In this document: positions 4,602-32,246 of the stretch, in pieces
Numbering within the stretch: position 1 is the first letter of the stretch
How the letters are laid out: each line of letters begins with the position of its first letter
Origin: Pseudomonadota bacterium
Lineage (GTDB): Bacteria; Pseudomonadota; Alphaproteobacteria; RF32; CAG-239
Assembly: GCA_021617435.1 (NCBI GenBank)
Contig: JAJWCP010000001.1
Span: 1,388-33,633, forward strand
Reading direction: 5' to 3'
Length of the DNA: 32,246 nucleotides
The notes under the pieces: model-generated
Databases searched by the model: none
What the model saw: only the letters and a program-made list of their open reading frames with translations
Told to the model about the DNA's origin: nothing
Made by a program: the position numbers and the translations under genes

Positions 4602-5873
4602 TTGGTTGATTATGGCAAGATAGACTCGTTTTTTAACGGGGAGCATCCTTTTGAAGAAAAAAACAGTCGCCGTTTAAGCTTAAAAGCCAAGCTCATACGC
4701 GGGGCAAAGCTTGTTATGCCTTCAACAGCGGCTGTTTTAATCGCTTTACTTATGCTTTATCCGTCATTAAAAAAAGACGAGGCTGTTGCTAATTTAGATG
4801 TTACGTTGCCTAAAAAAGGCGAGCTTGAAAAACTCCATATTGAAAAGACTGAATTTTCGGTTACTGATAAAGATAATTTGGTCAGTTTAATCAAGGCTGA
4901 CCAGGTTGATGAAACCACTGCCGGCTCCAAGGTTATGAAAATTATTAATCCGCAAGGCACAATTCCGGCCGGAAGCAATGACAAACCGGTGGCGGTCAGC
5001 TCCAAAGTCGGCTATTATGACCAAAAAAACAATATCATGAAATTGGAAAAAAATGTTAAGGCCGTGTATGCCGATGGTACCACTGCTGAAACGCAGGAAG
5101 TTAAATATGATTTTAAAAAATCTTTAGGTAACGGCACGCAAAAACTTTATGCTTACGGTGCTTGGGGAAAACTGTGGTCAGAGCAATTTACCTATAATCA
5201 CGCCGCGCAGGTTTTAACCTTAATCGGCAAGTCAAAAGTAACAGATGAAAAAAACACTTTGTTTGCTGACGGACAGGTTCGTTATTATCGTGCTGAAAAC
5301 AAGGCTGAAGCTGATGAAAACGTTAAAATTGAAACGCCGCAAAATGTTATAACTTCCGATAAAATGCGTGCTTTTATCAAGCAAGCCAAAAACTTAGAGT
5401 TTGAAAAAACCGAGGCATGGGGCAATGTTAAATTAACCGCTGAAAAAAACACTATGTATGCCGACAGAGCAGTGGTCTTTTTTCAAAACGGCGCAGTCAG
5501 CAAGGCGGAAGCTTATAATAATGTAAAAGTTATTGAAGGCGATAACACGATGTACGCTGATAAGGTTTTTGTCTTTTTTAAGGACGGCGGCACGCAAGAT
5601 ATTGAAAAAATTGAAGCTTACGATAATGTAAAGGTAGTAACGCCGGACGGAGTTGCCAAAGGCGATTACGGGTTGTATCAACCCCATAAAAATGAAGTTG
5701 AACTAAAGCATAATGTTGCCATAACGCAAAATGGCAGCGTTATTTACGGCGACCGCGCGATTACCGACTTAAAAACTTCCGTCAGCCGCGTGTTGTCTGA
5801 TACGCATAATAAGCGCGTTTCCGGTGTGATTACCGGCGCTGCAATTAAAGGTGAAAAAAATGAAAAAAAATAA
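4602..5873 (+). CDS. Membrane-anchored LptC-like plus LptA/OstA-like fusion protein (LPS transport bridge)
   Basis: The TTG start directly abuts the kdsD stop. There is an N-terminal anchor (RRLSLKAKLIRGAKLVMPSTAAVLIALLMLYPSL). The first half is LptC-like. The second half carries OstA-type repeats (EKNTMYADRAVVFF...AEAYNNVKV; GDNTMYADKVFVFF...IEAYDNVKV; GDYGLYQPHKNEVELKHNV). The position between kdsD and lptB fits. The start codon is uncertain. Confidence 0.7.
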   Translation: MVDYGKIDSFFNGEHPFEEKNSRRLSLKAKLIRGAKLVMPSTAAVLIALLMLYPSLKKDEAVANLDVTLPKKGELEKLHIEKTEFSVTDKDNLVSLIKADQVDETTAGSKVMKIINPQGTIPAGSNDKPVAVSSKVGYYDQKNNIMKLEKNVKAVYADGTTAETQEVKYDFKKSLGNGTQKLYAYGAWGKLWSEQFTYNHAAQVLTLIGKSKVTDEKNTLFADGQVRYYRAENKAEADENVKIETPQNVITSDKMRAFIKQAKNLEFEKTEAWGNVKLTAEKNTMYADRAVVFFQNGAVSKAEAYNNVKVIEGDNTMYADKVFVFFKDGGTQDIEKIEAYDNVKVVTPDGVAKGDYGLYQPHKNEVELKHNVAITQNGSVIYGDRAITDLKTSVSRVLSDTHNKRVSGVITGAAIKGEKNEKK

Positions 5874-6600
5874 TCAGGATTCGGTATTAGAAATTTTTAA
5901 TATCGGCAAAAAATATAAAAATCGCGCCGTTTTGAAGAATGTTTCGCTACATGTTCGCCGCGGTGAGGCAGTCGGTTTGTTAGGACCTAACGGCGCCGGT
6001 AAAACCACATGTTTTTATTGCGTTATCGGCTTAATTACGCCTGATTACGGCGATGTTCATATTAACGGCGAAGATATTACCAATATGCCGATGTACCGTC
6101 GCGCCCGTATGGGCATCGGTTATCTGCCGCAAGAAGCTTCTATTTTCAGAAGTTTAAGCGTGGAAGACAATATTAAAGCTATTTTGGAAATTGTGGAAGA
6201 AGACGAAAGTAAGCGCGAAAATATGTTAGAAGAATTGTTAAATGAGTTTTCAATCGCACACTTGCGCAAATCTCCGGCAATTGCGCTGTCAGGCGGTGAA
6301 CGCCGCCGTTTGGAAATTGCCCGCGCGCTTGCCAGCAATCCTGATTTTATTTTGCTTGATGAACCGCTTGCCGGTATTGACCCGATTGCGGTGGGCGAAA
6401 TCCGTTCACTGGTATCGCAGCTTAAAAACCGCGGCTTGGGTGTGCTGATTACCGACCACAATGTGCGCGAAACCTTAGACATTATTGACCGCGCCTATAT
6501 TTTGCACGGCGGCTCCGTATTAATGGAAGGCACGCCGGAAGAAATTGTTGCCAGTAAAGAAGTTCGCAAAGTTTATTTGGGTGATAATTTTTCTATGTAG
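5860..6600 (+). CDS. lptB: LPS export ABC transporter ATP-binding protein LptB
   Basis: It has Walker A (GPNGAGKTT), the ABC signature (LSGGERRRLEIARAL), Walker B (ILLDEP) and an H-loop (ITDHN). I chose the ATG at 5860 because AAGGTG lies about 6 nt upstream. The ORF track start (GTG at 5851) is the alternative. The gene overlaps the 3' end of the preceding ORF. Confidence 0.93.
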   Translation: MKKNNQDSVLEIFNIGKKYKNRAVLKNVSLHVRRGEAVGLLGPNGAGKTTCFYCVIGLITPDYGDVHINGEDITNMPMYRRARMGIGYLPQEASIFRSLSVEDNIKAILEIVEEDESKRENMLEELLNEFSIAHLRKSPAIALSGGERRRLEIARALASNPDFILLDEPLAGIDPIAVGEIRSLVSQLKNRGLGVLITDHNVRETLDIIDRAYILHGGSVLMEGTPEEIVASKEVRKVYLGDNFSM

Positions 6601-6608
6601 CCTATACC

Positions 6609-6642
6609 CCTCATTGCTTGCAGTGAGGAGAATTTTATTTTT
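6609..6642 (+). terminator. Putative rho-independent terminator of lptB
   Basis: An 8-bp stem (6609-6616 cctcattg pairing with 6621-6628 cagtgagg, one G-U pair) has a cttg loop. It is followed by the T-rich run aattttattttt. Confidence 0.5.
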
Positions 6643-6645
6643 CAG

Positions 6646-6677
6646 ATTTACGAGTCCGGGGTGTGTATAAGTTGTAT
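6646..6677. repeat. Left copy of a 32-bp direct repeat flanking the low-GC cassette
   Basis: The sequence atttacgagtccggggtgtgtataagttgtat matches 8914-8945 at 29 of 32 positions on the same strand. Confidence 0.85.
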
Positions 6678-6746
6678 TTAAATCCGCAATATAAAAAATT
6701 CCCCTCTGATGATATTGTAGCGTTCGCGCGCTCTTTTGCAGGAAAA

Positions 6747-8771
6747 TTATAAATCAAGTTGCTTTTTTACATTGGCAAATACTAAATTTACAGCCGCTTC
6801 AATTTTCCTTTCTTTCTTTTTAACTTCTTTTACATATTGTTGAGCTTTTTCTTTAGTATTAGTCATGTCATGCAACAAGCCACGGTAACAGCTTTGAGGG
6901 TGAGGACCTCCATAATAAATTACTTTATGGTGCGAGTCTTCATTGGTAAATTCATTAATAATCCTGATGCGGCGGGCATTAGGCGTAACCGGTTCTTGCG
7001 TGGCAATTTTATCTTGCGGGGTTTTAGCATTAGGATTTTCATATAATTCAATTAACGGACTGTCTTGTTGGTGTAAAAACTGATGAGACAGCTTGTTAAC
7101 AATTACAAAATTATCCGGTGTGTTTTCACCGCCGTCTTTTAAGGGCTTTTTGTGATGAACCTGGAAATTGGTTGCTCTGTATACATACGGGTCGCCGACA
7201 TTTGCGGCATTTTCCCAAATTTCATCAATGGTTACATTATCATCTGTTAAGTCAGCCGATATGGTTTTAACTAATTTTTTGTTTTTTGCAACCTCTTTCC
7301 AGAAAGCATGGCGAGCATCTTCAATCTTATGTCCTGATTTAAGTTCACTGAGGACAAATCTGTCTTTATGAAAATAACGACCATCCCACTCATCATAAGC
7401 AACATAATATTCATATTCATTATTTTTAGCAACCATTTCGTTAATATCTTTAAGGTTAAATTTAACGGCAATTTTCGGCGGTACATGCATGTTACAAAAC
7501 ATGTCCTTTACTGTTCCGATATATTCATCAAAACCATATTCTTTAAGACTTTTAATAGCAATGCTTTCATCATCTAATCGGTCATAATCATTATATTTAA
7601 ATTTATGATTATTATCAGGTTTAAATTCTAAAAATTCTTTAGTATGTAGCATACTACGGAACCTTTCATCTTCCACTTTACCGACCATTGCGTCAAATTG
7701 CAAACGTTTGACAGAATTGATATTGGTGTCGGATATGTCGCCATAAGTATAAGTAACTTTAAGCCCGTACATGCCACGGAAGTTATTAACTGCGTCTAAA
7801 TTTTCTTGTGTGAAGTTATTAACTAAATACCGCATAATCTCGCTATCCATATCCAGTAATTTTTCGTCATCATAGCCCATAATGCAGTTATAAAAAAATT
7901 CTTTATCTTCCGGATTGTCTGATTTAGTAACTGCAGTTGTTTCACGTAATAACTGCTCTGCAAACGGCATATCGGGGTATTTTTCGTTAAGAGCGCCTTC
8001 TAAATAGTTGTTTTTTGCTAATAGTTCAAAGATTGCTGACTTAAAATTTTTATCTTTGACGTTTGGATTGTTGGCTAAATTAATAAAATAATCAATGTTT
8101 TCAGTTTGGCAATTTCGTAAAAATGACCAGTCATCACAGCCGTTAGTATTTAATGCTGATATACATGGTTGTAAAATTTTGTCGTCATCTGTGTTGATGG
8201 CAATATGCTTGATTAAATCTATTTTGTCCTTTTTGCTTGCTTTGTTCATAGTATTGCACGCCGTTGCAAGTATACATTTTGTGATTTTCGGATTAGACCT
8301 AATTTTTGTGTTGCTACCTAAACACTCTAAAAAATTTTGTATGGTTCTGCCGGTATATAATTTCGGATTTTCCAGTTGTTGGAGTAAAAATTTATCATCA
8401 TTATAAAAATCATTGTAAGCAACAGCTGCGTATAATTTAATTTGATCATTCAATAAACGGTCATTGGTAATTTTAGTAGCTCTGAATAAATCAATAAAAG
8501 CTTGTTGTGTGCCGTAGTTAAATGTTTTTATATTATTGTAGAGATGTTGTGGAGAATTATTATAAATATTGTGCGGGTCATAAAAGTTTGCTTTAAACAA
8601 ATCTTGATAAGTGTTTATAGGTTTATTGTGATCATAAGTCATAGTAGGCTTATTAGACTCATCTGTTACAGAGTTATTGGAATCGTAATCTAATGATGAG
8701 TGACGCTTTCTTAGTTTTTTGGCAGATGGATTGTTAATTGTATCGTACAAATAGTCTGTATCCTGATTCAT
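6747..8771 (-). CDS. Hypothetical 674-aa protein with a C-terminal HNH nuclease motif and an orphan N-terminal region
   Basis: This is a long uninterrupted ORF in AT-rich DNA. GGAG lies about 8 nt upstream of the ATG. The HNH-type motif NFQVHHKKPLKDGGENTPDNFVIVNKLSHQFLH occupies residues 535-569 (DNA 7065-7169). I recognise nothing in the first ~530 aa, which are rich in Asn, Asp, Lys and Tyr. Confidence 0.75.
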   Translation of the reverse strand: MNQDTDYLYDTINNPSAKKLRKRHSSLDYDSNNSVTDESNKPTMTYDHNKPINTYQDLFKANFYDPHNIYNNSPQHLYNNIKTFNYGTQQAFIDLFRATKITNDRLLNDQIKLYAAVAYNDFYNDDKFLLQQLENPKLYTGRTIQNFLECLGSNTKIRSNPKITKCILATACNTMNKASKKDKIDLIKHIAINTDDDKILQPCISALNTNGCDDWSFLRNCQTENIDYFINLANNPNVKDKNFKSAIFELLAKNNYLEGALNEKYPDMPFAEQLLRETTAVTKSDNPEDKEFFYNCIMGYDDEKLLDMDSEIMRYLVNNFTQENLDAVNNFRGMYGLKVTYTYGDISDTNINSVKRLQFDAMVGKVEDERFRSMLHTKEFLEFKPDNNHKFKYNDYDRLDDESIAIKSLKEYGFDEYIGTVKDMFCNMHVPPKIAVKFNLKDINEMVAKNNEYEYYVAYDEWDGRYFHKDRFVLSELKSGHKIEDARHAFWKEVAKNKKLVKTISADLTDDNVTIDEIWENAANVGDPYVYRATNFQVHHKKPLKDGGENTPDNFVIVNKLSHQFLHQQDSPLIELYENPNAKTPQDKIATQEPVTPNARRIRIINEFTNEDSHHKVIYYGGPHPQSCYRGLLHDMTNTKEKAQQYVKEVKKKERKIEAAVNLVFANVKKQLDL

Positions 8772-8913
8772 GGCGTTTACTCCGTATCAAAAACATAGGT
8801 TATATTAACATGCAAAATTAAATAAATCAAGCCAATAGGACTTTTTAGACAAAACAATTCGCATATTATCTTATAATATGAGAAGATTTTAGCTCGCGTT
8901 TTTTTTTTGCAAT

Positions 8914-8945
8914 ATTTACGAGTCCGTGCTGTGCATAAGTTGTAT
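8914..8945. repeat. Right copy of the 32-bp direct repeat flanking the low-GC cassette
   Basis: The sequence atttacgagtccgtgctgtgcataagttgtat matches 6646-6677 at 29 of 32 positions. It lies 2,268 bp downstream of that copy on the same strand. Confidence 0.85.
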
Positions 8946-8955
8946 GTGTATCATT

Positions 8956-8984
8956 AAAAAATCCGGCATTGTTGCCGGATTTTT
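8956..8984 (-). terminator. Rho-independent terminator of the atp operon (after atpC)
   Basis: The perfect hairpin atccggca / ttgt / tgccggat (8961-8980) is flanked by an A-run on the left and a T-run on the right. On the minus strand it reads as a hairpin followed by a T-tract, 7 nt after the atpC stop. Confidence 0.8.
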
Positions 8985-8990
8985 AACTAT

Positions 8991-9337
8991 TTAGCCGAAT
9001 ATTTTTAAGTATTCGTATATTTTTTGGTAAAAAGCGGAGCTTGCCGCCAAAGTTTCGGCTTCCGCCAAGCTGATTTTTTGTAAGTCAACCGCGCGTTCCG
9101 CCGCAACTTTGCATTTGTTTTCGGCAATATCGGCAAATCCGCCGCTGATAAACCAACGTTTCAGCATTTTGTTTTCAGCGTTTAAGGTTGCAATAACTCC
9201 GCCTGAGAGCATCAAAGAACTTGGCGCTCTGCCGTCAATAACGGTCAAGTTGCCGACATCAATCGGCAAAATCACTTTATCTGATTTTTCTTCCGCAATC
9301 AGTTGTTCCGGAGTGCAAATTGCTAAACTTATTGCCA

Positions 9338-9338
<1 letters not shown>
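8991..9338 (-). CDS. atpC: F1 ATP synthase subunit epsilon
   Basis: This 115-aa ORF lies immediately after atpD, with stop and start overlapping at 9338. The position and size fit the short epsilon subunits seen in reduced alphaproteobacterial genomes. Confidence 0.85.
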
Positions 9339-10813
<1,475 letters not shown>

Positions 10814-20644: not shown

Positions 20645-22720
20645 ATGGCAAGAACATATTTGCAAACCAATACGGTTAATCATAATCACCAAACCGGCAG
20701 CTATGAAAATATTGAACGGGAGCTGATTAAGGAGCAGCAATATCTTAATGCTCAGCTCGCGCGTGTCAGTGCTGATATTTTAAGAGGCGAGGGTGATGAT
20801 GCCGCGCTGAATGCTGAGCGAACATCGTATCGTCAGGCTCTTGACACGGCGGTGCAGGATATGGCATTGCTTAAAAAATATCCCGAATCTTTTCCGTATT
20901 TATATTCAGTGCGCGAACATGCCAAAGCTGATGAAATGCAAGGCACGTTTCGCGAAGTTTTAAGTGATGATGCTGAAATCGTGACTGAAGCCGGTGACGT
21001 TATGCCGCGTGATGAAGCGCTTGAGCTTAACTATGAAATTGACGGCGTTCCGTTTGCCGTATCCGCCGAGCCTTATGATAAACCCGGTGAAGATGAGGCT
21101 CAGCTTAGAGGGCGTATTAATTTCAGTGTCAAAGCCATAGAAAATTTAAATGAAGAACGCTTAAAACAGATTTTGGCCTTTTGCGAGCAACATGGCATGT
21201 CGGTTTATGATATTGATATTCCGATGAAAGAGGGTAAGGTTGATTTAGATGAAAAACTTGCCTCGTTAATGCAAAAAGTTATGGATGCTCGTCGTGCGCA
21301 GGATGCTGCTAATCCAGGTGCCGGTGCTGATGATGAAAATCTTAATCATTATCAGGAAATTACGCCTGAAACTAAAGATTTAGACGTGGCTTTTGTCAAA
21401 GGGACGAAGGTGAAACCTAAAGCCAAAGCGCCCAAAACTTTAAACAACGTTAAAAATGACCTGTTGGAATTGATTGAAAAAGATATGAAGAAAACCCGCG
21501 GTTTAACCTTTTTTGAACGCACTCGTAATGTCGGCGGGTTGTCAACAACTGTCTTCAGTATTTATGATAAACCGGATAAGGATAATGAGAAAAAAGACGG
21601 TCTTAAAGATAAAAACGGCGTTTATGTGCCTACTTATACTTATCGCCTTTATGTTTCGCAGAACTCTAAAACCGGACGCTTTGTGTTCGGCTATTCCACC
21701 CCTAATGGCAAAAAATTAGATGATGCCATGGCGGGCGATTTTATCGGTGTTATTAAAAAGAGTGGTGCAACCCATGTAAACTTTTCAAACCTCAGCAATG
21801 CAGATAAGGGTGTTTGGATGATGGCCTGCGCTGAAAAAGGCTTGGTGCCGATTGGTATCAGTATCAATATGGCTAAAGCCAAAGCGATGGTTGAAGCGGC
21901 GCGCAAAAAACTCAATCATGAAGAATTTGTTTTGTTCAAAAAACGCCTTGCCGACCAAATGATTGAAAACTCTGAAAAGAAGAACCCGGGTAAAGCTCGT
22001 TTCGGCATGGAAAAATCAGAGTATGATTTTGTTCAGACTATGCGATCAGGTTATGACTTTGAAAACTTCCGCTCTGCTTATGACGCGGAGGGAGGCTTGT
22101 ATACCACGGTGCTCTCGCGTATTGAAGAGGGTGGCGCTAACGCGGAAAAAGGCGCGGCTATTACCTTCGGCGCTATGCGCGCGTTGCGTTCGGTATTTGA
22201 CTTGTACGTTAAAAATCAGAATGAAACCTTTGGCGAGGCTTTGGCAAAATCAACCGGTGCCAATAACAAATATGCTTTAACCAAAGAAGAAGTTTTAGCA
22301 CTCTCGCAAATTCCGGCCGGTAAGCCGATGATGGACTTAAATACTGATGACTTTATGGCTATTTACCGCGTTTTGGAACCGCGTCAGATACGGCAAGCGG
22401 AAGAAGATATTTTAGCCGCTTATCGCCGTGAGCTTAAACGCAAACCGCAGCGTGCCGATACTATTGTTTTAGCCAGCGATTTGTTCCCGAAAGTTAAATC
22501 GGAAGTTAACGGTATTAATATTTACTTAGGTCGTGAAGGTATTGACACCTTAACGTTGCCTAATGAACACAGCGGTTTGAGCTATGCTCGTCCTGAAGAA
22601 CTTAATCCTCAGCCGACCGCGCAAAATACGCAGGTTCTGCAAAATACTCAGACTAACCAACCGCAAGCTACTAATAAAGTGGTTAACGCTCAAGTGCAAA
22701 ATTCCGGTAATACCCGCTAA
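20645..22720 (+). CDS. Hypothetical 691-aa protein with no recognisable domain and a Gln/Asn/Thr-rich C-terminal tail
   Basis: This is a long ORF with host-like composition. TAAGGAG lies 8 nt before the ATG. A strong terminator follows at 22766-22796. No TM segment, signal peptide or catalytic motif was recognised. Confidence 0.8.
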   Translation: MARTYLQTNTVNHNHQTGSYENIERELIKEQQYLNAQLARVSADILRGEGDDAALNAERTSYRQALDTAVQDMALLKKYPESFPYLYSVREHAKADEMQGTFREVLSDDAEIVTEAGDVMPRDEALELNYEIDGVPFAVSAEPYDKPGEDEAQLRGRINFSVKAIENLNEERLKQILAFCEQHGMSVYDIDIPMKEGKVDLDEKLASLMQKVMDARRAQDAANPGAGADDENLNHYQEITPETKDLDVAFVKGTKVKPKAKAPKTLNNVKNDLLELIEKDMKKTRGLTFFERTRNVGGLSTTVFSIYDKPDKDNEKKDGLKDKNGVYVPTYTYRLYVSQNSKTGRFVFGYSTPNGKKLDDAMAGDFIGVIKKSGATHVNFSNLSNADKGVWMMACAEKGLVPIGISINMAKAKAMVEAARKKLNHEEFVLFKKRLADQMIENSEKKNPGKARFGMEKSEYDFVQTMRSGYDFENFRSAYDAEGGLYTTVLSRIEEGGANAEKGAAITFGAMRALRSVFDLYVKNQNETFGEALAKSTGANNKYALTKEEVLALSQIPAGKPMMDLNTDDFMAIYRVLEPRQIRQAEEDILAAYRRELKRKPQRADTIVLASDLFPKVKSEVNGINIYLGREGIDTLTLPNEHSGLSYARPEELNPQPTAQNTQVLQNTQTNQPQATNKVVNAQVQNSGNTR

Positions 22721-31502: not shown

Positions 31503-32231
31503 TTAGAAAGTCATCTGATAATAAAAAGCGCAACTGTCTTTGTCTTCGCAAACGTTACAAAAGTCTTCCATTTCAGCAATGGTTAAATCTTTCAGGCATT
31601 TTGTGTCAGATGTGCAATAACTATCGCCATTAACTATGTTGGCCGAGGAATTTTCTTCACCTTTGGTTGTTTTAAACTTGGTACGCCAAAGTTGCTCTCT
31701 TTTGGCTTTAGCGATTGTAAATAAATTCATGCACGATTCTTTTTGCCCCTTGTTTAAGTATAACAAAAACTCAAAGGTATAACCGCTATCGAAATAGTTT
31801 GCGAGAACAATCGTAGTCCCAAAGACGTCAAATATAGCGTCATTTCTGTTTTCGCGTATCATTTCTTGCGGGATAACGTTTAATTTTTTAAGTAAAGGTA
31901 TCATATTGGCGGAAATAGTTGTTTTTGAGCGTTTAAAATCATCTAAATGAATATTGACATAGTCTAAAATTGAGCCGATTTGCTCCGTTTGTTTGTTAAG
32001 TTTGTATTTCATCATTGCTTTGCTGTAACCGGCGATAGCGCCGACTGACAGAACGCCGATAATCGCCAAAACGCCGAGCATTTCTACCATAGACCGACCG
32101 GCATTCACAATCTTGTCATTATCGGGCTTGAGCGATACGTCCTTCCCCTTTCTGTCATTATCGGGCTTGAGCGATGCGCCCGCCCCCTCTCTGTCATTAT
32201 CGGGCTTGACCCGATAATCCAGGTGGGACAA
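31503..32231 (-). CDS. Type IV pilin / pseudopilin-like protein (prepilin-type N-terminal cleavage/methylation signal); 5' end uncertain
   Basis: It has a class III signal: G|RSMVEMLGVLAIIGVLSVGAIAGYS, with Glu at +5 after the predicted cleavage Gly. The C-terminus is Cys-rich. The frame stays open to the window edge at 32246. A GTG at 32108 would give a normal short leader (M-N-A-G) and a CDS of 31503-32108. The TTG at 32231 would place the repeats KPDNDREGAGASL/KPDNDRKGKDVSL in front of the signal. Confidence 0.6.
   Translation of the reverse strand: MSHLDYRVKPDNDREGAGASLKPDNDRKGKDVSLKPDNDKIVNAGRSMVEMLGVLAIIGVLSVGAIAGYSKAMMKYKLNKQTEQIGSILDYVNIHLDDFKRSKTTISANMIPLLKKLNVIPQEMIRENRNDAIFDVFGTTIVLANYFDSGYTFEFLLYLNKGQKESCMNLFTIAKAKREQLWRTKFKTTKGEENSSANIVNGDSYCTSDTKCLKDLTIAEMEDFCNVCEDKDSCAFYYQMTF
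32114..32218. repeat. 39-bp tandem repeat (2 full units plus a partial third) ending in a 9-bp-arm palindrome
   Basis: Unit 1 (32114-32152) and unit 2 (32153-32191) match at 34 of 39 positions. Unit 3 shares its first 18 nt (32192-32209). It then completes the palindrome attatcggg (32196-32204) / cttga / cccgataat (32210-32218). The array may continue beyond the window. Confidence 0.85.
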
Positions 32232-32246
32232 ATTTGCTACTTTATT

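What the first reader, a model, noticed from the sequence alone, without database searches (positions are those of the whole stretch)
6646..8945. 2.27-kb low-GC single-gene cassette bounded by 32-bp direct repeats between the convergent lptB and atpC
Seen in the sequence:
- atttacgagtccggggtgtgtataagttgtat (6646-6677) and atttacgagtccgtgctgtgcataagttgtat (8914-8945) lie on the same strand. They match at 29 of 32 positions and are 2,268 bp apart.
- The left copy starts right after the T-tract of the lptB terminator hairpin.
- The right copy ends 10 nt before the atpC terminator hairpin.
- Deleting the interior plus one copy would therefore leave a compact intergenic region with two convergent terminators.
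- The interior holds one minus-strand ORF with its own Shine-Dalgarno.
- My hand counts of two 60-nt samples inside it (7381-7440, 8521-8580) gave about 32% and 27% G+C. Samples in atpD (10021-10080) and in the 691-aa gene (21001-21060) gave about 50%.

No integrase, transposase or terminal inverted repeats are present.

Inference: this is a horizontally acquired cassette, and its flanks look like attL/attR or a duplicated target. How it moved is unexplained.
Basis: partly seen in the sequence, partly recalled or inferred. Interest (0 to 1): 0.7.

Follow-up and report, generated by a model that had tools for sequence, protein, structure and literature searches.

The report
Nuclease gene in a pilin-promoter slot
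The two 32-bp "cassette ends" are copies of a promoter-associated sequence that occurs at least 21-43 times per genome in front of a large family of pilin-like genes in uncultured human-gut Alphaproteobacteria, and the low-GC gene between them is a rare HNH nuclease sitting in one of those pilin slots, not a self-mobile element with attachment sites.

Summary
Two 32-mers (29/32 identical, 2,268 bp apart) flank one low-GC gene (33% GC against 44%).

The 32-mer is the distal end of a conserved element of about 65 nt: 32-mer, then TTGCAA, A(8-12), CGCGAGC, TAAAAT. I counted at least 126 copies in four related gut alphaproteobacterial MAGs. Almost all lie 60-66 nt upstream of a prepilin-type (type IV pilin-like) ORF.

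In sister strains the atpC-lptB gap holds 1-3 such pilin units plus up to about 8 kb of other genes. No empty site was found.

The closest relative (L011, 98-99.5% identical) has atpC-[element]-HNH gene-[element]-pilin-lptB. The window is that arrangement minus about 860 bp. The left "repeat" is therefore the stump of the next pilin unit.

The same HNH gene, again between elements, lies after clpB in another species.

The 674-aa protein has an intact colicin-E7/E9-type HNH DNase motif in an otherwise unmatched fold. It has no immunity gene and only 36 relatives among 1.84 billion representative proteins.

Best reading: an accessory nuclease gene captured under a pilin-family promoter, moved or rearranged by recombination between dispersed promoter copies.

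The parts
8914..8945 (-). Right 32-mer. It is the promoter-distal block of the family element that heads the HNH gene (gene sense: ATACAACTTATGCACAGCACGGACTCGTAAAT).
   Evidence: Across 98 copies, conservation begins abruptly at this block's outer end; information content is about 0 upstream of it.
8886..8913 (-). Promoter-proximal part of the element. It holds a putative -35 TTGCAA (8907-8912), an A10 tract within a 15-nt spacer (8892-8906) and a putative -10 TAAAAT (8886-8891).
   Evidence: The sequence is read. The same block precedes pilin-like, GT2, Cys-rich and HNH genes, and the shared part ends at TAAAAT. A copy with A12 is called TTGCAA-17-TAAAAT by the promoter scan. This A10 copy is not called.
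8772..8878 (-). Cassette-specific 5' leader of the HNH gene (107 nt), with the Shine-Dalgarno GGAG upstream of the ATG at 8771.
   Evidence: It is conserved in L011, L012, L124 and L125, and from 'ttttgtctaaaaa' onward in L013. It has no homology with pilin units.
6747..8771 (-). 674-aa ORF. Residues 1-46 are disordered, about 55-320 form an alpha-solenoid, about 321-480 are a conserved middle domain, 482-568 are the HNH DNase domain, and 570-674 are a conserved C-terminal extension.
7068..7328 (-). Colicin/pyocin-type HNH DNase domain (aa 482-568). H539, H540, G547, G548, H563 and H567 are invariant in 39 family members.
   Evidence: Pfam PF21431 scores 29.2 bits against a cut-off of 27. A family profile aligns to colicin E7 DNase chains, including the helix FRKKFWEEV (DARHAFWKEV in the window protein), at E about 1e-3. 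The invariant columns are listed.
6678..6746 (-). 3' tail of the HNH unit. Positions 6678-6706 (gene sense ...gaggggaatttt..gcggatttaa) match the tails that precede other element copies.
   Evidence: (6633-6706 matches L003, L004 and L005 at 83-86%).
6646..6677 (-). Left 32-mer. It is the stump of the element of the next (pilin) unit; its promoter-proximal part and the pilin ORF are deleted.
   Evidence: L011 has the full element plus a 266-aa pilin-like gene here. The window is 99.5% and 97.8% identical to L011 on the two sides of the gap.
6629..6645 (-). 17-nt junction. It is the residue of the last codons and the stop codon of the deleted pilin-like gene.
   Evidence: It aligns to ...TGGGAATAACATAATTACC of L071 and L011.
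6609..6628 (+). lptB terminator hairpin. It marks the end of lptB-side synteny.
8961..8980 (-). atpC terminator hairpin (atccggca-ttgt-tgccggat, followed by a T-run).
   Evidence: Read. It is conserved next to the first element in all relatives.
31503..32246 (-). Another member of the pilin-like family; its 5' end and its element lie beyond the window. The leader carries 2.5 in-frame copies of a 39-nt repeat (32114-32209).

Best explanation
The 32-mers are two copies of the upstream end of a promoter-type element of about 65 nt that heads each member of a large family of prepilin-type (type IV pilin-like) genes. The family occurs in a small clade of uncultured human-gut Alphaproteobacteria.

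**The element.** In gene sense it reads: 32-mer, then a -35-like TTGCAA, an A(8-12) tract plus CGCGAGC, then a -10-like TAAAAT.

**The locus.** The atpC-lptB gap is a hypervariable array of such units.

**What happened in this lineage.** Steps 1-3 are shown by comparison. Step 4 is partly shown and partly inferred, and step 5 is inferred.
1. The first slot is occupied by a compositionally foreign 674-aa gene instead of a pilin gene. The join lies just downstream of the -10, so the gene would be transcribed from the family promoter.
2. The gene is followed by the element of the next pilin unit.
3. An illegitimate deletion of about 860 bp then removed that unit from just after its 32-mer to two codons before the pilin stop. 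This left a lone 32-mer against the lptB terminator and created the look of a cassette with direct repeats.
4. The same gene sits between elements at a second locus, after clpB in L013. I infer that it moves or is rearranged by ordinary homologous recombination or gene conversion between the many dispersed, nearly identical elements. It does not move by a recombinase acting on att sites.
5. The protein is an active-looking HNH DNase of the colicin E7/E9 type, fused to an alpha-solenoid and a novel middle domain. It has no immunity partner. It is most likely a regulated intracellular nuclease (defence or stress-type effector) rather than a bacteriocin. This last point is the least certain.
For: **Copy number and placement of the element.**
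- At least 106 stretches and 126 copies were found, all in four related MAGs, or 21-43 per MAG as a lower bound.
- 94 of the 126 copies lie 59-66 nt (three at 35-36 nt) upstream of an ATG that opens G|RSMVEMLGVLAIIG... ORFs. Most of the remainder are cut by contig ends.
- Conservation starts abruptly at the 32-mer.

**Promoter reading.**
- The part shared with unrelated cargo (GT2 glycosyltransferases, Cys-rich secreted proteins, the HNH gene) ends at TAAAAT.
- An A12 copy is called as TTGCAA-17-TAAAAT.

**Alternative states of the locus.**
- Ten strains with an identical AtpC carry pilin units, with or without Fic, PepF and DUF2207 genes, between atpC and lptB.
- L011 has atpC-element-HNH-element-pilin-lptB.
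- The window is L011 minus about 860 bp.

**Other occurrences of the gene.**
- L013 has clpB-element-HNH-element.
- Three Logan contigs of 2.2 kb carry the gene and break inside the elements on both sides.

**The protein.**
- PF21431 lies just above its cut-off.
- It aligns to colicin E7.
- The HH...H...H residues are invariant in 39 relatives.
- The models are confident (pLDDT 81 and 88) but have no PDB fold match.
- There is no ORF of 50 aa or more, and only 69 nt, between the stop codon and the next element.
Against: **Promoter function is unproven.**
- No transcription start site or expression data exist.
- With the modal A10 tract the -35/-10 spacer is only 15 nt, which is poor for sigma-70.
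- The 32-mer's own role (activator site, UP-like element or something else) is unknown.

**Hints of a special role for the 32-mer.**
- The element has a very sharp outer boundary.
- Several rearrangement end points fall at or near the 32-mer: the window's deletion, the partial 18-nt duplicate in L002, L005 and L007, and the synteny break in L008.
- These could mean the 32-mer is also a preferred recombination site.

**Weak spots in family assignment and function.**
- Prepilin models score just below their cut-offs.
- The nuclease's biological role is inferred only from domain content and the lack of an immunity gene.
Confidence: 0.8

Rival explanations
1. Site-specific cassette system. The 32-mer is an att-like or attC-like core at which an unlinked recombinase inserts, excises and shuffles gene cassettes (pilin genes, the HNH gene, GT2 genes), as in an integron or a Xer-dependent module array.
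For: - The outer boundary of the repeat is sharp and uniform in every context.
- Different cargo types lie behind the same element.
- The HNH unit is found between elements at two loci.
- A partial 32-mer plus tail remnant occurs in L002, L005 and L007.
- The window's deletion starts exactly at the inner end of the 32-mer.
- By eye, TTATGCACAGC resembles a XerC-type dif arm in 9 of 11 positions. This rests on my own recollection of the E. coli dif sequence and was not tested.
Against: - No recombinase gene lies in the window or next to the arrays examined.
- The element always faces a start codon at a fixed distance and contains -35/-10-like hexamers.
- Cargo junctions lie after TAAAAT, not at the 32-mer.
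- The sequence on the far side of the 32-mer shows no second conserved arm.
- No empty site or precise excision product was seen.
- Remnant copies are truncated at different points: L037, L095 and L117.
Confidence: 0.07
2. Selfish nuclease gene. The HNH protein recognises the conserved element, or a pilin-slot sequence, and cuts it. It spreads among slots by break-induced gene conversion, as a free-standing homing endonuclease does.
For: - An intact HNH catalytic motif.
- The gene is embedded between copies of a conserved repeat at two different loci.
- Its distribution among close strains is patchy.
Against: - The domain is of the colicin DNase type, whose characterised members are non-specific (own knowledge).
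- At 674 aa with a solenoid it is unlike known homing enzymes.
- Relatives at 35-47% identity lie beside a tRNA gene, dnaJ, clpB or cas genes. In L014, the only one of these loci I searched, no copy of the element was found.
- Only one slot per genome is seen occupied.
Confidence: 0.05
3. Bacteriocin-like or contact-dependent toxin. The protein is exported and kills competitors, and the producer's immunity is encoded elsewhere.
For: - Colicin/pyocin DNase homology.
- Variable N-terminal regions on a conserved C-terminal module across the family, giving lengths of 353-1185 aa.
- Co-regulation with surface or secreted proteins is suggested by the shared promoter.
Against: - No adjacent immunity gene here or in six other contexts.
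- No signal peptide and no recognised trafficking domain (Pfam found none).
- The conserved module is about 420 aa, not just the toxin tip.
Confidence: 0.15
4. Assembly artefact. The repeats caused a chimeric join, so the cassette next to lptB is not real.
For: The element is a multi-copy repeat at which short-read assemblies break.
Against: - An independent 64-kb contig (L011) shows the same atpC-element-HNH-element order.
- The window-specific junction leaves the repeat into unique sequence that matches the 3' end of the deleted pilin gene. A repeat-mediated misjoin would not produce this.
Confidence: 0.03

Closest known systems
Mycoplasma hyorhinis vlp-type multigene families (conserved promoter with a homopolymer tract between -35 and -10)
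   Same: - Many paralogous surface-protein genes each carry a near-identical 5' region.
- A poly-A tract lies in the putative -35/-10 spacer.
- Tract length differs between copies (8-12) and between strains at the same locus (9-12).
- Spacer-tract insertions and deletions switch vlp, maa2 and vmm transcription on and off according to PMC2268961.
   Different: - The organism is a Gram-negative alphaproteobacterium.
- The genes encode prepilin-type proteins, not lipoproteins.
- The copies are dispersed over the genome.
- No expression data exist.
- PMC2268961 also shows that such a tract can be functionally irrelevant, as in the vpma locus.
Colicin E7/E9 and pyocin S2/AP41 DNase domains (Pfam PF21431, HNH)
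   Same: - The HH-x-P-L-x-D-GG-x-N-x-x-D-N...H-x-x-x-H motif is shared.
- The preceding FW-containing helix aligns as well.
- The catalytic residues are invariant in the family.
   Different: - No immunity gene.
- No receptor-binding or translocation domains.
- The domain is internal and is followed by a conserved 105-aa extension (YYGGP motif).
- The surrounding fold has no PDB match.
Type IV pilin or pseudopilin paralogue sets, and large prepilin-N-terminal families (for example the Verrucomicrobia 'Verru_Chthon cassette' proteins, TIGR02596)
   Same: - The flanking genes have the G|xxxxE prepilin motif, a hydrophobic helix and C-terminal Cys pairs.
- The best model hits are all prepilin-type.
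   Different: - Scores are just below the curated cut-offs.
- Position +1 is Arg.
- Many members have 50-90-aa leaders built from in-frame 39-nt repeats.
- 21-43 or more copies per small genome, each with its own copy of the promoter element.
Integron gene cassettes and Xer-dependent (pdif-type) modules
   Same: Single genes are bounded by short conserved repeats, with different cargo behind the same repeat.
   Different: - No integrase is present.
- The repeat lies on the promoter side and contains the promoter, whereas integron cassettes are usually promoterless with attC at the 3' end (own knowledge).
- The repeat has no palindromic attC-like structure.
- No excision products were seen.

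Membership tests
   At least 126 copies occur in four MAGs, or 21-43 per genome. Relatives have 2-3 copies in the same gap, each in front of a pilin-like gene. No empty site was seen among 10 strains with identical AtpC.
   The interior has one ORF, an HNH nuclease. The flanking genes are housekeeping genes.
   L013 has clpB-element-HNH-element. However, the 'ends' there are again full promoter elements of neighbouring units, and the unit's inner junctions differ.
Colicin/pyocin DNase (PF21431) toxins | An HNH beta-beta-alpha-metal motif with the catalytic His and Asn residues, and a family model hit above its cut-off. | tested here: met
   PF21431 scores 29.2 bits against a cut-off of 27. H539, H540, H563 and H567 are invariant. 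The match is marginal in score.
Colicin/pyocin DNase (PF21431) toxins | A cognate immunity gene lies immediately downstream. | tested here: not met
   Only 69 nt, with no ORF of 50 aa or more, separate the stop codon from the next element. No conserved small neighbour appears in L011, L013, L014, L122, L126 or L128.
Colicin/pyocin DNase (PF21431) toxins | N-terminal receptor-binding and translocation domains, or another export signal. | tested here: not met
   No Pfam domain is found in the N-terminal 480 aa here or in nine longer relatives. The fold search gives only weak ARM/HEAT-like similarity, E of 0.04 or more.
Prepilin-type (type IV pilin-like) proteins, for the neighbouring family | An N-terminal G|xxxxE cleavage/methylation motif followed by a hydrophobic helix. 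| tested here: inconclusive
   The motif is visible in all 94 ORFs. TIGR02532 scores 15.1 against a cut-off of 16.3, PF07963 scores 14-17 against 21.2, and PilS scores 20.1 against 22.
Prepilin-type (type IV pilin-like) proteins, for the neighbouring family | A prepilin peptidase and pilus or T2SS assembly genes in the genome. | not tested
   Only fragments of the genomes were fetched.
Phase-variable promoter with a homopolymer tract in the spacer (vlp type) | A homopolymer lies between the -35 and -10 hexamers and is length-polymorphic. | tested here: met
   The counts for A8:A9:A10:A11:A12 are 1:17:96:4:1. Orthologous slots vary from 9 to 12 between strains. Hexamer assignment rests on consensus only.
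Phase-variable promoter with a homopolymer tract in the spacer (vlp type) | Tract length switches transcription on and off. | not testable with these tools
   This needs RNA or reporter data, or read-level heterogeneity within a population.
Known anti-phage defence systems (PADLOC) | A match to a defence-protein model. | tested here: not met
   The only hit is a stray one at E = 0.031. The relative P0013 has none.

The most novel reading that the evidence does not exclude
The 32-mer is more than a promoter part. It would be the recombination hotspot of a pilin-diversification system, and the HNH nuclease, encoded inside a pilin slot and driven by the same promoter, would make the DNA breaks at the element that drive gene conversion, deletion and slot exchange among the 20-40 or more pilin-like loci. 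That would be a nuclease-driven antigenic-variation or cassette-exchange mechanism in a gut commensal.
Probability: 0.05. Interest if true: 0.85.

Novelty: new variant of a known kind. Interest (0 to 1): 0.45.

Why it matters
**For the finding as posed.** Short direct repeats around a low-GC gene are not evidence of an att site until their genome-wide copy number is known. Here the "unexplained mobility" dissolves into a family promoter plus a lineage-specific deletion.

**What the follow-up uncovered.** A clade of uncultured human-gut Alphaproteobacteria devotes at least 21-43 loci per genome to prepilin-type proteins. Each locus sits behind a near-identical promoter element with a length-variable A-tract. 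Many of these genes carry variable in-frame leader repeats. If these genes are expressed combinatorially, this would be a large surface-variation system in a poorly known gut lineage.

**The nuclease.** The same promoter has been recruited by a rare, structurally unmatched HNH nuclease family (36 representatives among 1.84 billion proteins). That gives a concrete handle for studying this regulon and the nuclease.

Tried and rejected
- **Exact look-up of the 674-aa protein.** It is not on record.
- **JGI metagenome scan with the protein.** There were 42 pattern hits, none confirmed.
- **Viral and plasmid origin.** The 32-mer pattern gave 0 hits in IMG/VR contigs. tblastn of the protein against phage and plasmid collections found no match. 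There is therefore no evidence for phage or plasmid carriage.
- **Rfam on 6400-9200.** Nothing came near a gathering score.
- **PADLOC, PHROGs and NCBIfam on the protein.** Only stray sub-threshold HNH hits appeared.
- **Foldseek against the PDB.** The full model and the 321-674 module gave no match with E of 0.001 or less.
- **Sigma-54 promoter reading of the element.** I rejected it by eye because the GG-to-GC spacing is 15 rather than 12.
- **Xer/dif-like reading of the 32-mer.** I considered it and left it as a low-probability rival, because there is no conserved second arm.
- **RNA hairpin in the pilin leaders.** It folds strongly. Covariation is mostly wobble-type, so it cannot discriminate between RNA structure and a DNA palindrome.
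- **Literature search.** A search for a described pilin multigene family in gut Alphaproteobacteria found nothing relevant.
Full report
**1. Checking the observation**

- ATTTACGAGTCCGGGGTGTGTATAAGTTGTAT (6646-6677) and ATTTACGAGTCCGTGCTGTGCATAAGTTGTAT (8914-8945) are direct copies with 3 mismatches.
- They are the only two in the 32-kb window and are never reached in shuffles. Weaker similarity runs a little further on both sides (D4).
- The lptB terminator hairpin (6609-6628) ends 17 nt before the left copy.
- The stem of the atpC terminator (8961-8980) starts 15 nt after the right copy.
- The interior holds one ORF, 6747-8771 on the minus strand, 674 aa.
- Its GC is 33.2% and its GC3 is 29.6%. 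The other 21 ORFs average 44.1% and 44.5%, giving z = -3.5 and -3.9.
- The tetranucleotide distance peaks over 6501-9500, with a robust z up to 6.4.

**2. What the repeats are**

An exact look-up of the window's AtpC returned ten long contigs from human-gut metagenomes and one MAG. In all ten, atpC is followed by a prepilin-type gene, not by the 674-aa gene.

In seven of the ten, lptB is reached within the fetched flank, about 8-10 kb downstream of atpC. That interval holds:
- two or three small genes of 207-298 aa with no Pfam hit;
- in some strains a Fic gene;
- a block of PepF, an NTP-transferase, a DUF2207 gene and a 112-aa membrane protein.

The 32-mer occurs one to three times in each of these intervals. 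Read in gene sense, each copy continues into ATTGCA-A(9-12)-CGCGAGC-TAAAAT-CTTCTCAAA...TTTGAGAGGATTTT and then an ATG.

The genes behind it encode proteins that start (M..)G|RSMVEMLGVLAIIGVLSVGAIAGYSKAM. This is a prepilin-type cleavage motif with Glu at +5 and a hydrophobic helix. They also have Cys pairs near the C-terminus. All their best model hits are prepilin-type families, just under the curated cut-offs.

All came from four MAGs of uncultured gut Alphaproteobacteria, one of them mislabelled Lachnospiraceae.
- These stretches contain 126 copies, or 21-43 per MAG as a lower bound.
- 94 copies lie 59-66 nt (three at 35-36 nt) upstream of a pilin-like ORF.
- 19 are cut by contig ends.
- Among the remaining 13 are truncated pilin leaders, a few decayed remnants, and units with other cargo: two GT2 glycosyltransferases and three Cys-rich secreted proteins.

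Conservation begins abruptly at the outer end of the 32-mer; information content is about 0 upstream. The part shared by all cargo types ends at TAAAAT.

The hexamers TTGCAA and TAAAAT are separated by the A-tract plus 7 nt. That makes a spacer of 15 nt for the modal A10 and 17 nt for A12. The consensus scan calls the A12 copy a promoter and does not call the window's A10 copy. Tract length varies between copies (8-12) and between strains at the same slot (9-12).

I therefore read the 32-mer as the upstream block of a family promoter or operator, not as a recombination scar. What the block itself does (activator site or something else) is unknown.

**3. How the window's arrangement arose**

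- The contig that carries the 95%-identical protein P0002 (L011) is 99.5% identical to the window on the lptB side and 97.8% on the atp side.
- It reads atpC - element - HNH gene - element - 266-aa pilin-like gene - lptB.
- The window lacks about 860 bp of this. The missing stretch runs from the base after the second 32-mer to two codons before the pilin stop.
- The 17 nt at 6629-6645 still align with the pilin 3' end.

The left "repeat" is thus the stump of the next unit. Its position against the lptB terminator is a secondary deletion.

Unique cassette DNA runs from just after TAAAATCTTCTCA (8878) to about 6707. The tail at 6678-6706 is shared with tails that precede other elements.

Three 2.2-kb Logan contigs that carry close homologues break in the A-tract on one side. 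On the other side, two break in the next 32-mer and the third about 30 nt short of it. This is expected when the unit is flanked by multi-copy repeats.

In another species (L013, protein 89% identical) the gene lies downstream of clpB, again with an element on each side. The inner junction sequences differ there.

No integrase or transposase is nearby in any of these contexts. Related loci show other repeat-associated rearrangements:
- an 18-nt partial 32-mer plus tail remnant in L002, L005 and L007;
- a synteny break behind the first pilin gene in L008.

The simplest mechanism is homologous or illegitimate recombination among many dispersed, nearly identical 5' regions. That is an inference.

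**4. The gene**

Domain evidence:
- Pfam gives Col-Pyo_DNase (PF21431) at aa 482-568, just above its cut-off, and HNH just below.
- A family profile aligns with colicin E7 DNase chains, including the FW helix and the HH...DN...H...H motif.

The family is rare:
- 7 clusters among 5.8 billion proteins;
- 36 representatives among 1.84 billion.

Within the family, the conserved module is aa about 250-670 and the N-termini vary (353-1185 aa in total). H539, H540, G547, G548, H563 and H567 are invariant. The longer relatives have no Pfam domains in their N-termini.

AlphaFold models are confident:
- The full-length model has mean pLDDT 81, rising above 90 over most of residues 240-670.
- The 321-674 module has mean pLDDT 88.
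- They show an alpha-solenoid, a mixed middle domain, the HNH core and a beta-rich extension ending in a long helix.
- Foldseek finds nothing significant in the PDB.

There is no room for an immunity gene. Relatives in six other contexts have no conserved small neighbour. Those contexts are beside a tRNA gene with its own TTGACA-17-TATAAT promoter, after clpB, after dnaJ, and near cas9/cas1. PADLOC, PHROGs, and the phage and plasmid collections give nothing.

I conclude that it is very probably an active DNase. Its role is not established. A regulated intracellular effector (defence or stress) seems more likely than a secreted bacteriocin.

**5. Comparison with known systems**

- The promoter architecture works like the vlp-type families of mycoplasmas. 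There, a homopolymer in the -35/-10 spacer switches individual family members on and off (PMC2268961, which also warns that such tracts can be inert).
- The nuclease domain is a member of the colicin/pyocin DNase family by sequence. The protein is not a colicin-type toxin by architecture: it has no immunity gene and no translocation or receptor domains.
- The integron, Xer-module and homing-endonuclease models were considered. Each fails at least one tested defining feature (see the membership table).
- I found no paper describing this pilin-like family.

**6. Verdict**

The horizontal-acquisition inference is reasonable.

The feature is an accessory HNH nuclease gene occupying a slot in a hypervariable array of pilin-family transcription units. 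A lineage-specific deletion made it look like a repeat-bounded cassette.

Interest is moderate. The mobility puzzle is largely explained. The underlying promoter family and the unmatched nuclease are new variants of known themes and deserve a look by people working on gut Alphaproteobacteria.

Noticed in passing
window 31503-32246 (-); L016-L121: A very large family of prepilin-type genes, with 21-43 or more element copies per MAG, occurs in four related gut alphaproteobacterial MAGs. Each gene has the same promoter element of about 65 nt. The window's own second member runs off the right end.
   Followed up: partly
window 32114-32209; L001-L010 about 10490-10700: Many pilin-like ORFs carry in-frame 39-nt tandem repeats in the leader, upstream of the G|RSMVEM cleavage motif (encoding ...SLKPDND... 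or ...LDYRVKPDND...). The repeat contains a small palindrome. Copy number differs between paralogues and between strains at the same slot (207- against 274-aa alleles). The result is 50-90-aa leaders.
   Followed up: partly
L001:12585-12632 and about 85 other pilin units (absent from window 8772-8878): The standard pilin leader is a near-perfect inverted repeat of about 20 bp, GAGCTAAAATCTTCTCAAA...TTTGAGAGGATTTTAGCTC, ending at the ATG. It covers both the -10-like hexamer and the Shine-Dalgarno sequence (folding z = -7.7). Variation is mostly wobble-compatible. The HNH unit keeps only the left arm.
   Followed up: partly
L005:19297-19325 compared with window 8886-8912: The length of the A-tract in the putative promoter spacer differs between strains at orthologous slots (9-12). 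Only the long form gives canonical 17-nt spacing. This makes it a candidate for phase variation.
   Followed up: partly
L013 (clpB), L122/L123 (clpB plus 4 unknown genes), L126/L127 (dnaJ): Members of the HNH family lie directly downstream of heat-shock chaperone genes, on the same strand, in three of the seven distinct genomic contexts examined. This could be coincidence or a stress-regulon link.
   Followed up: no
L008:10490-20348: In one strain, synteny breaks right after the first pilin-like gene: HAD hydrolase, flavin reductase and other genes follow instead of the PepF...lptB block. This suggests that pilin slots are break points for rearrangement.
   Followed up: no
L086:2337-2600; L013:12020-12107: Another short repeat (...aaaattcccctctatggaggg.tgccg.aggcggggtgg...) recurs in the tails upstream of elements in different species. 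It may be a separate terminator-like or REP-like repeat family.
   Followed up: no
L020 and the other CAVBCV01 loci (GCA_963594125.1): This assembly is titled 'Lachnospiraceae bacterium' but carries 43 copies of the alphaproteobacterial element plus the pilin-like family and the HNH gene. It is probably a mislabelled bin.
   Followed up: no
window 4602-5873 (+): The 423-aa ORF upstream of lptB matches both LptC and LptA models, so it looks like a fused LptC-LptA protein.
   Followed up: no
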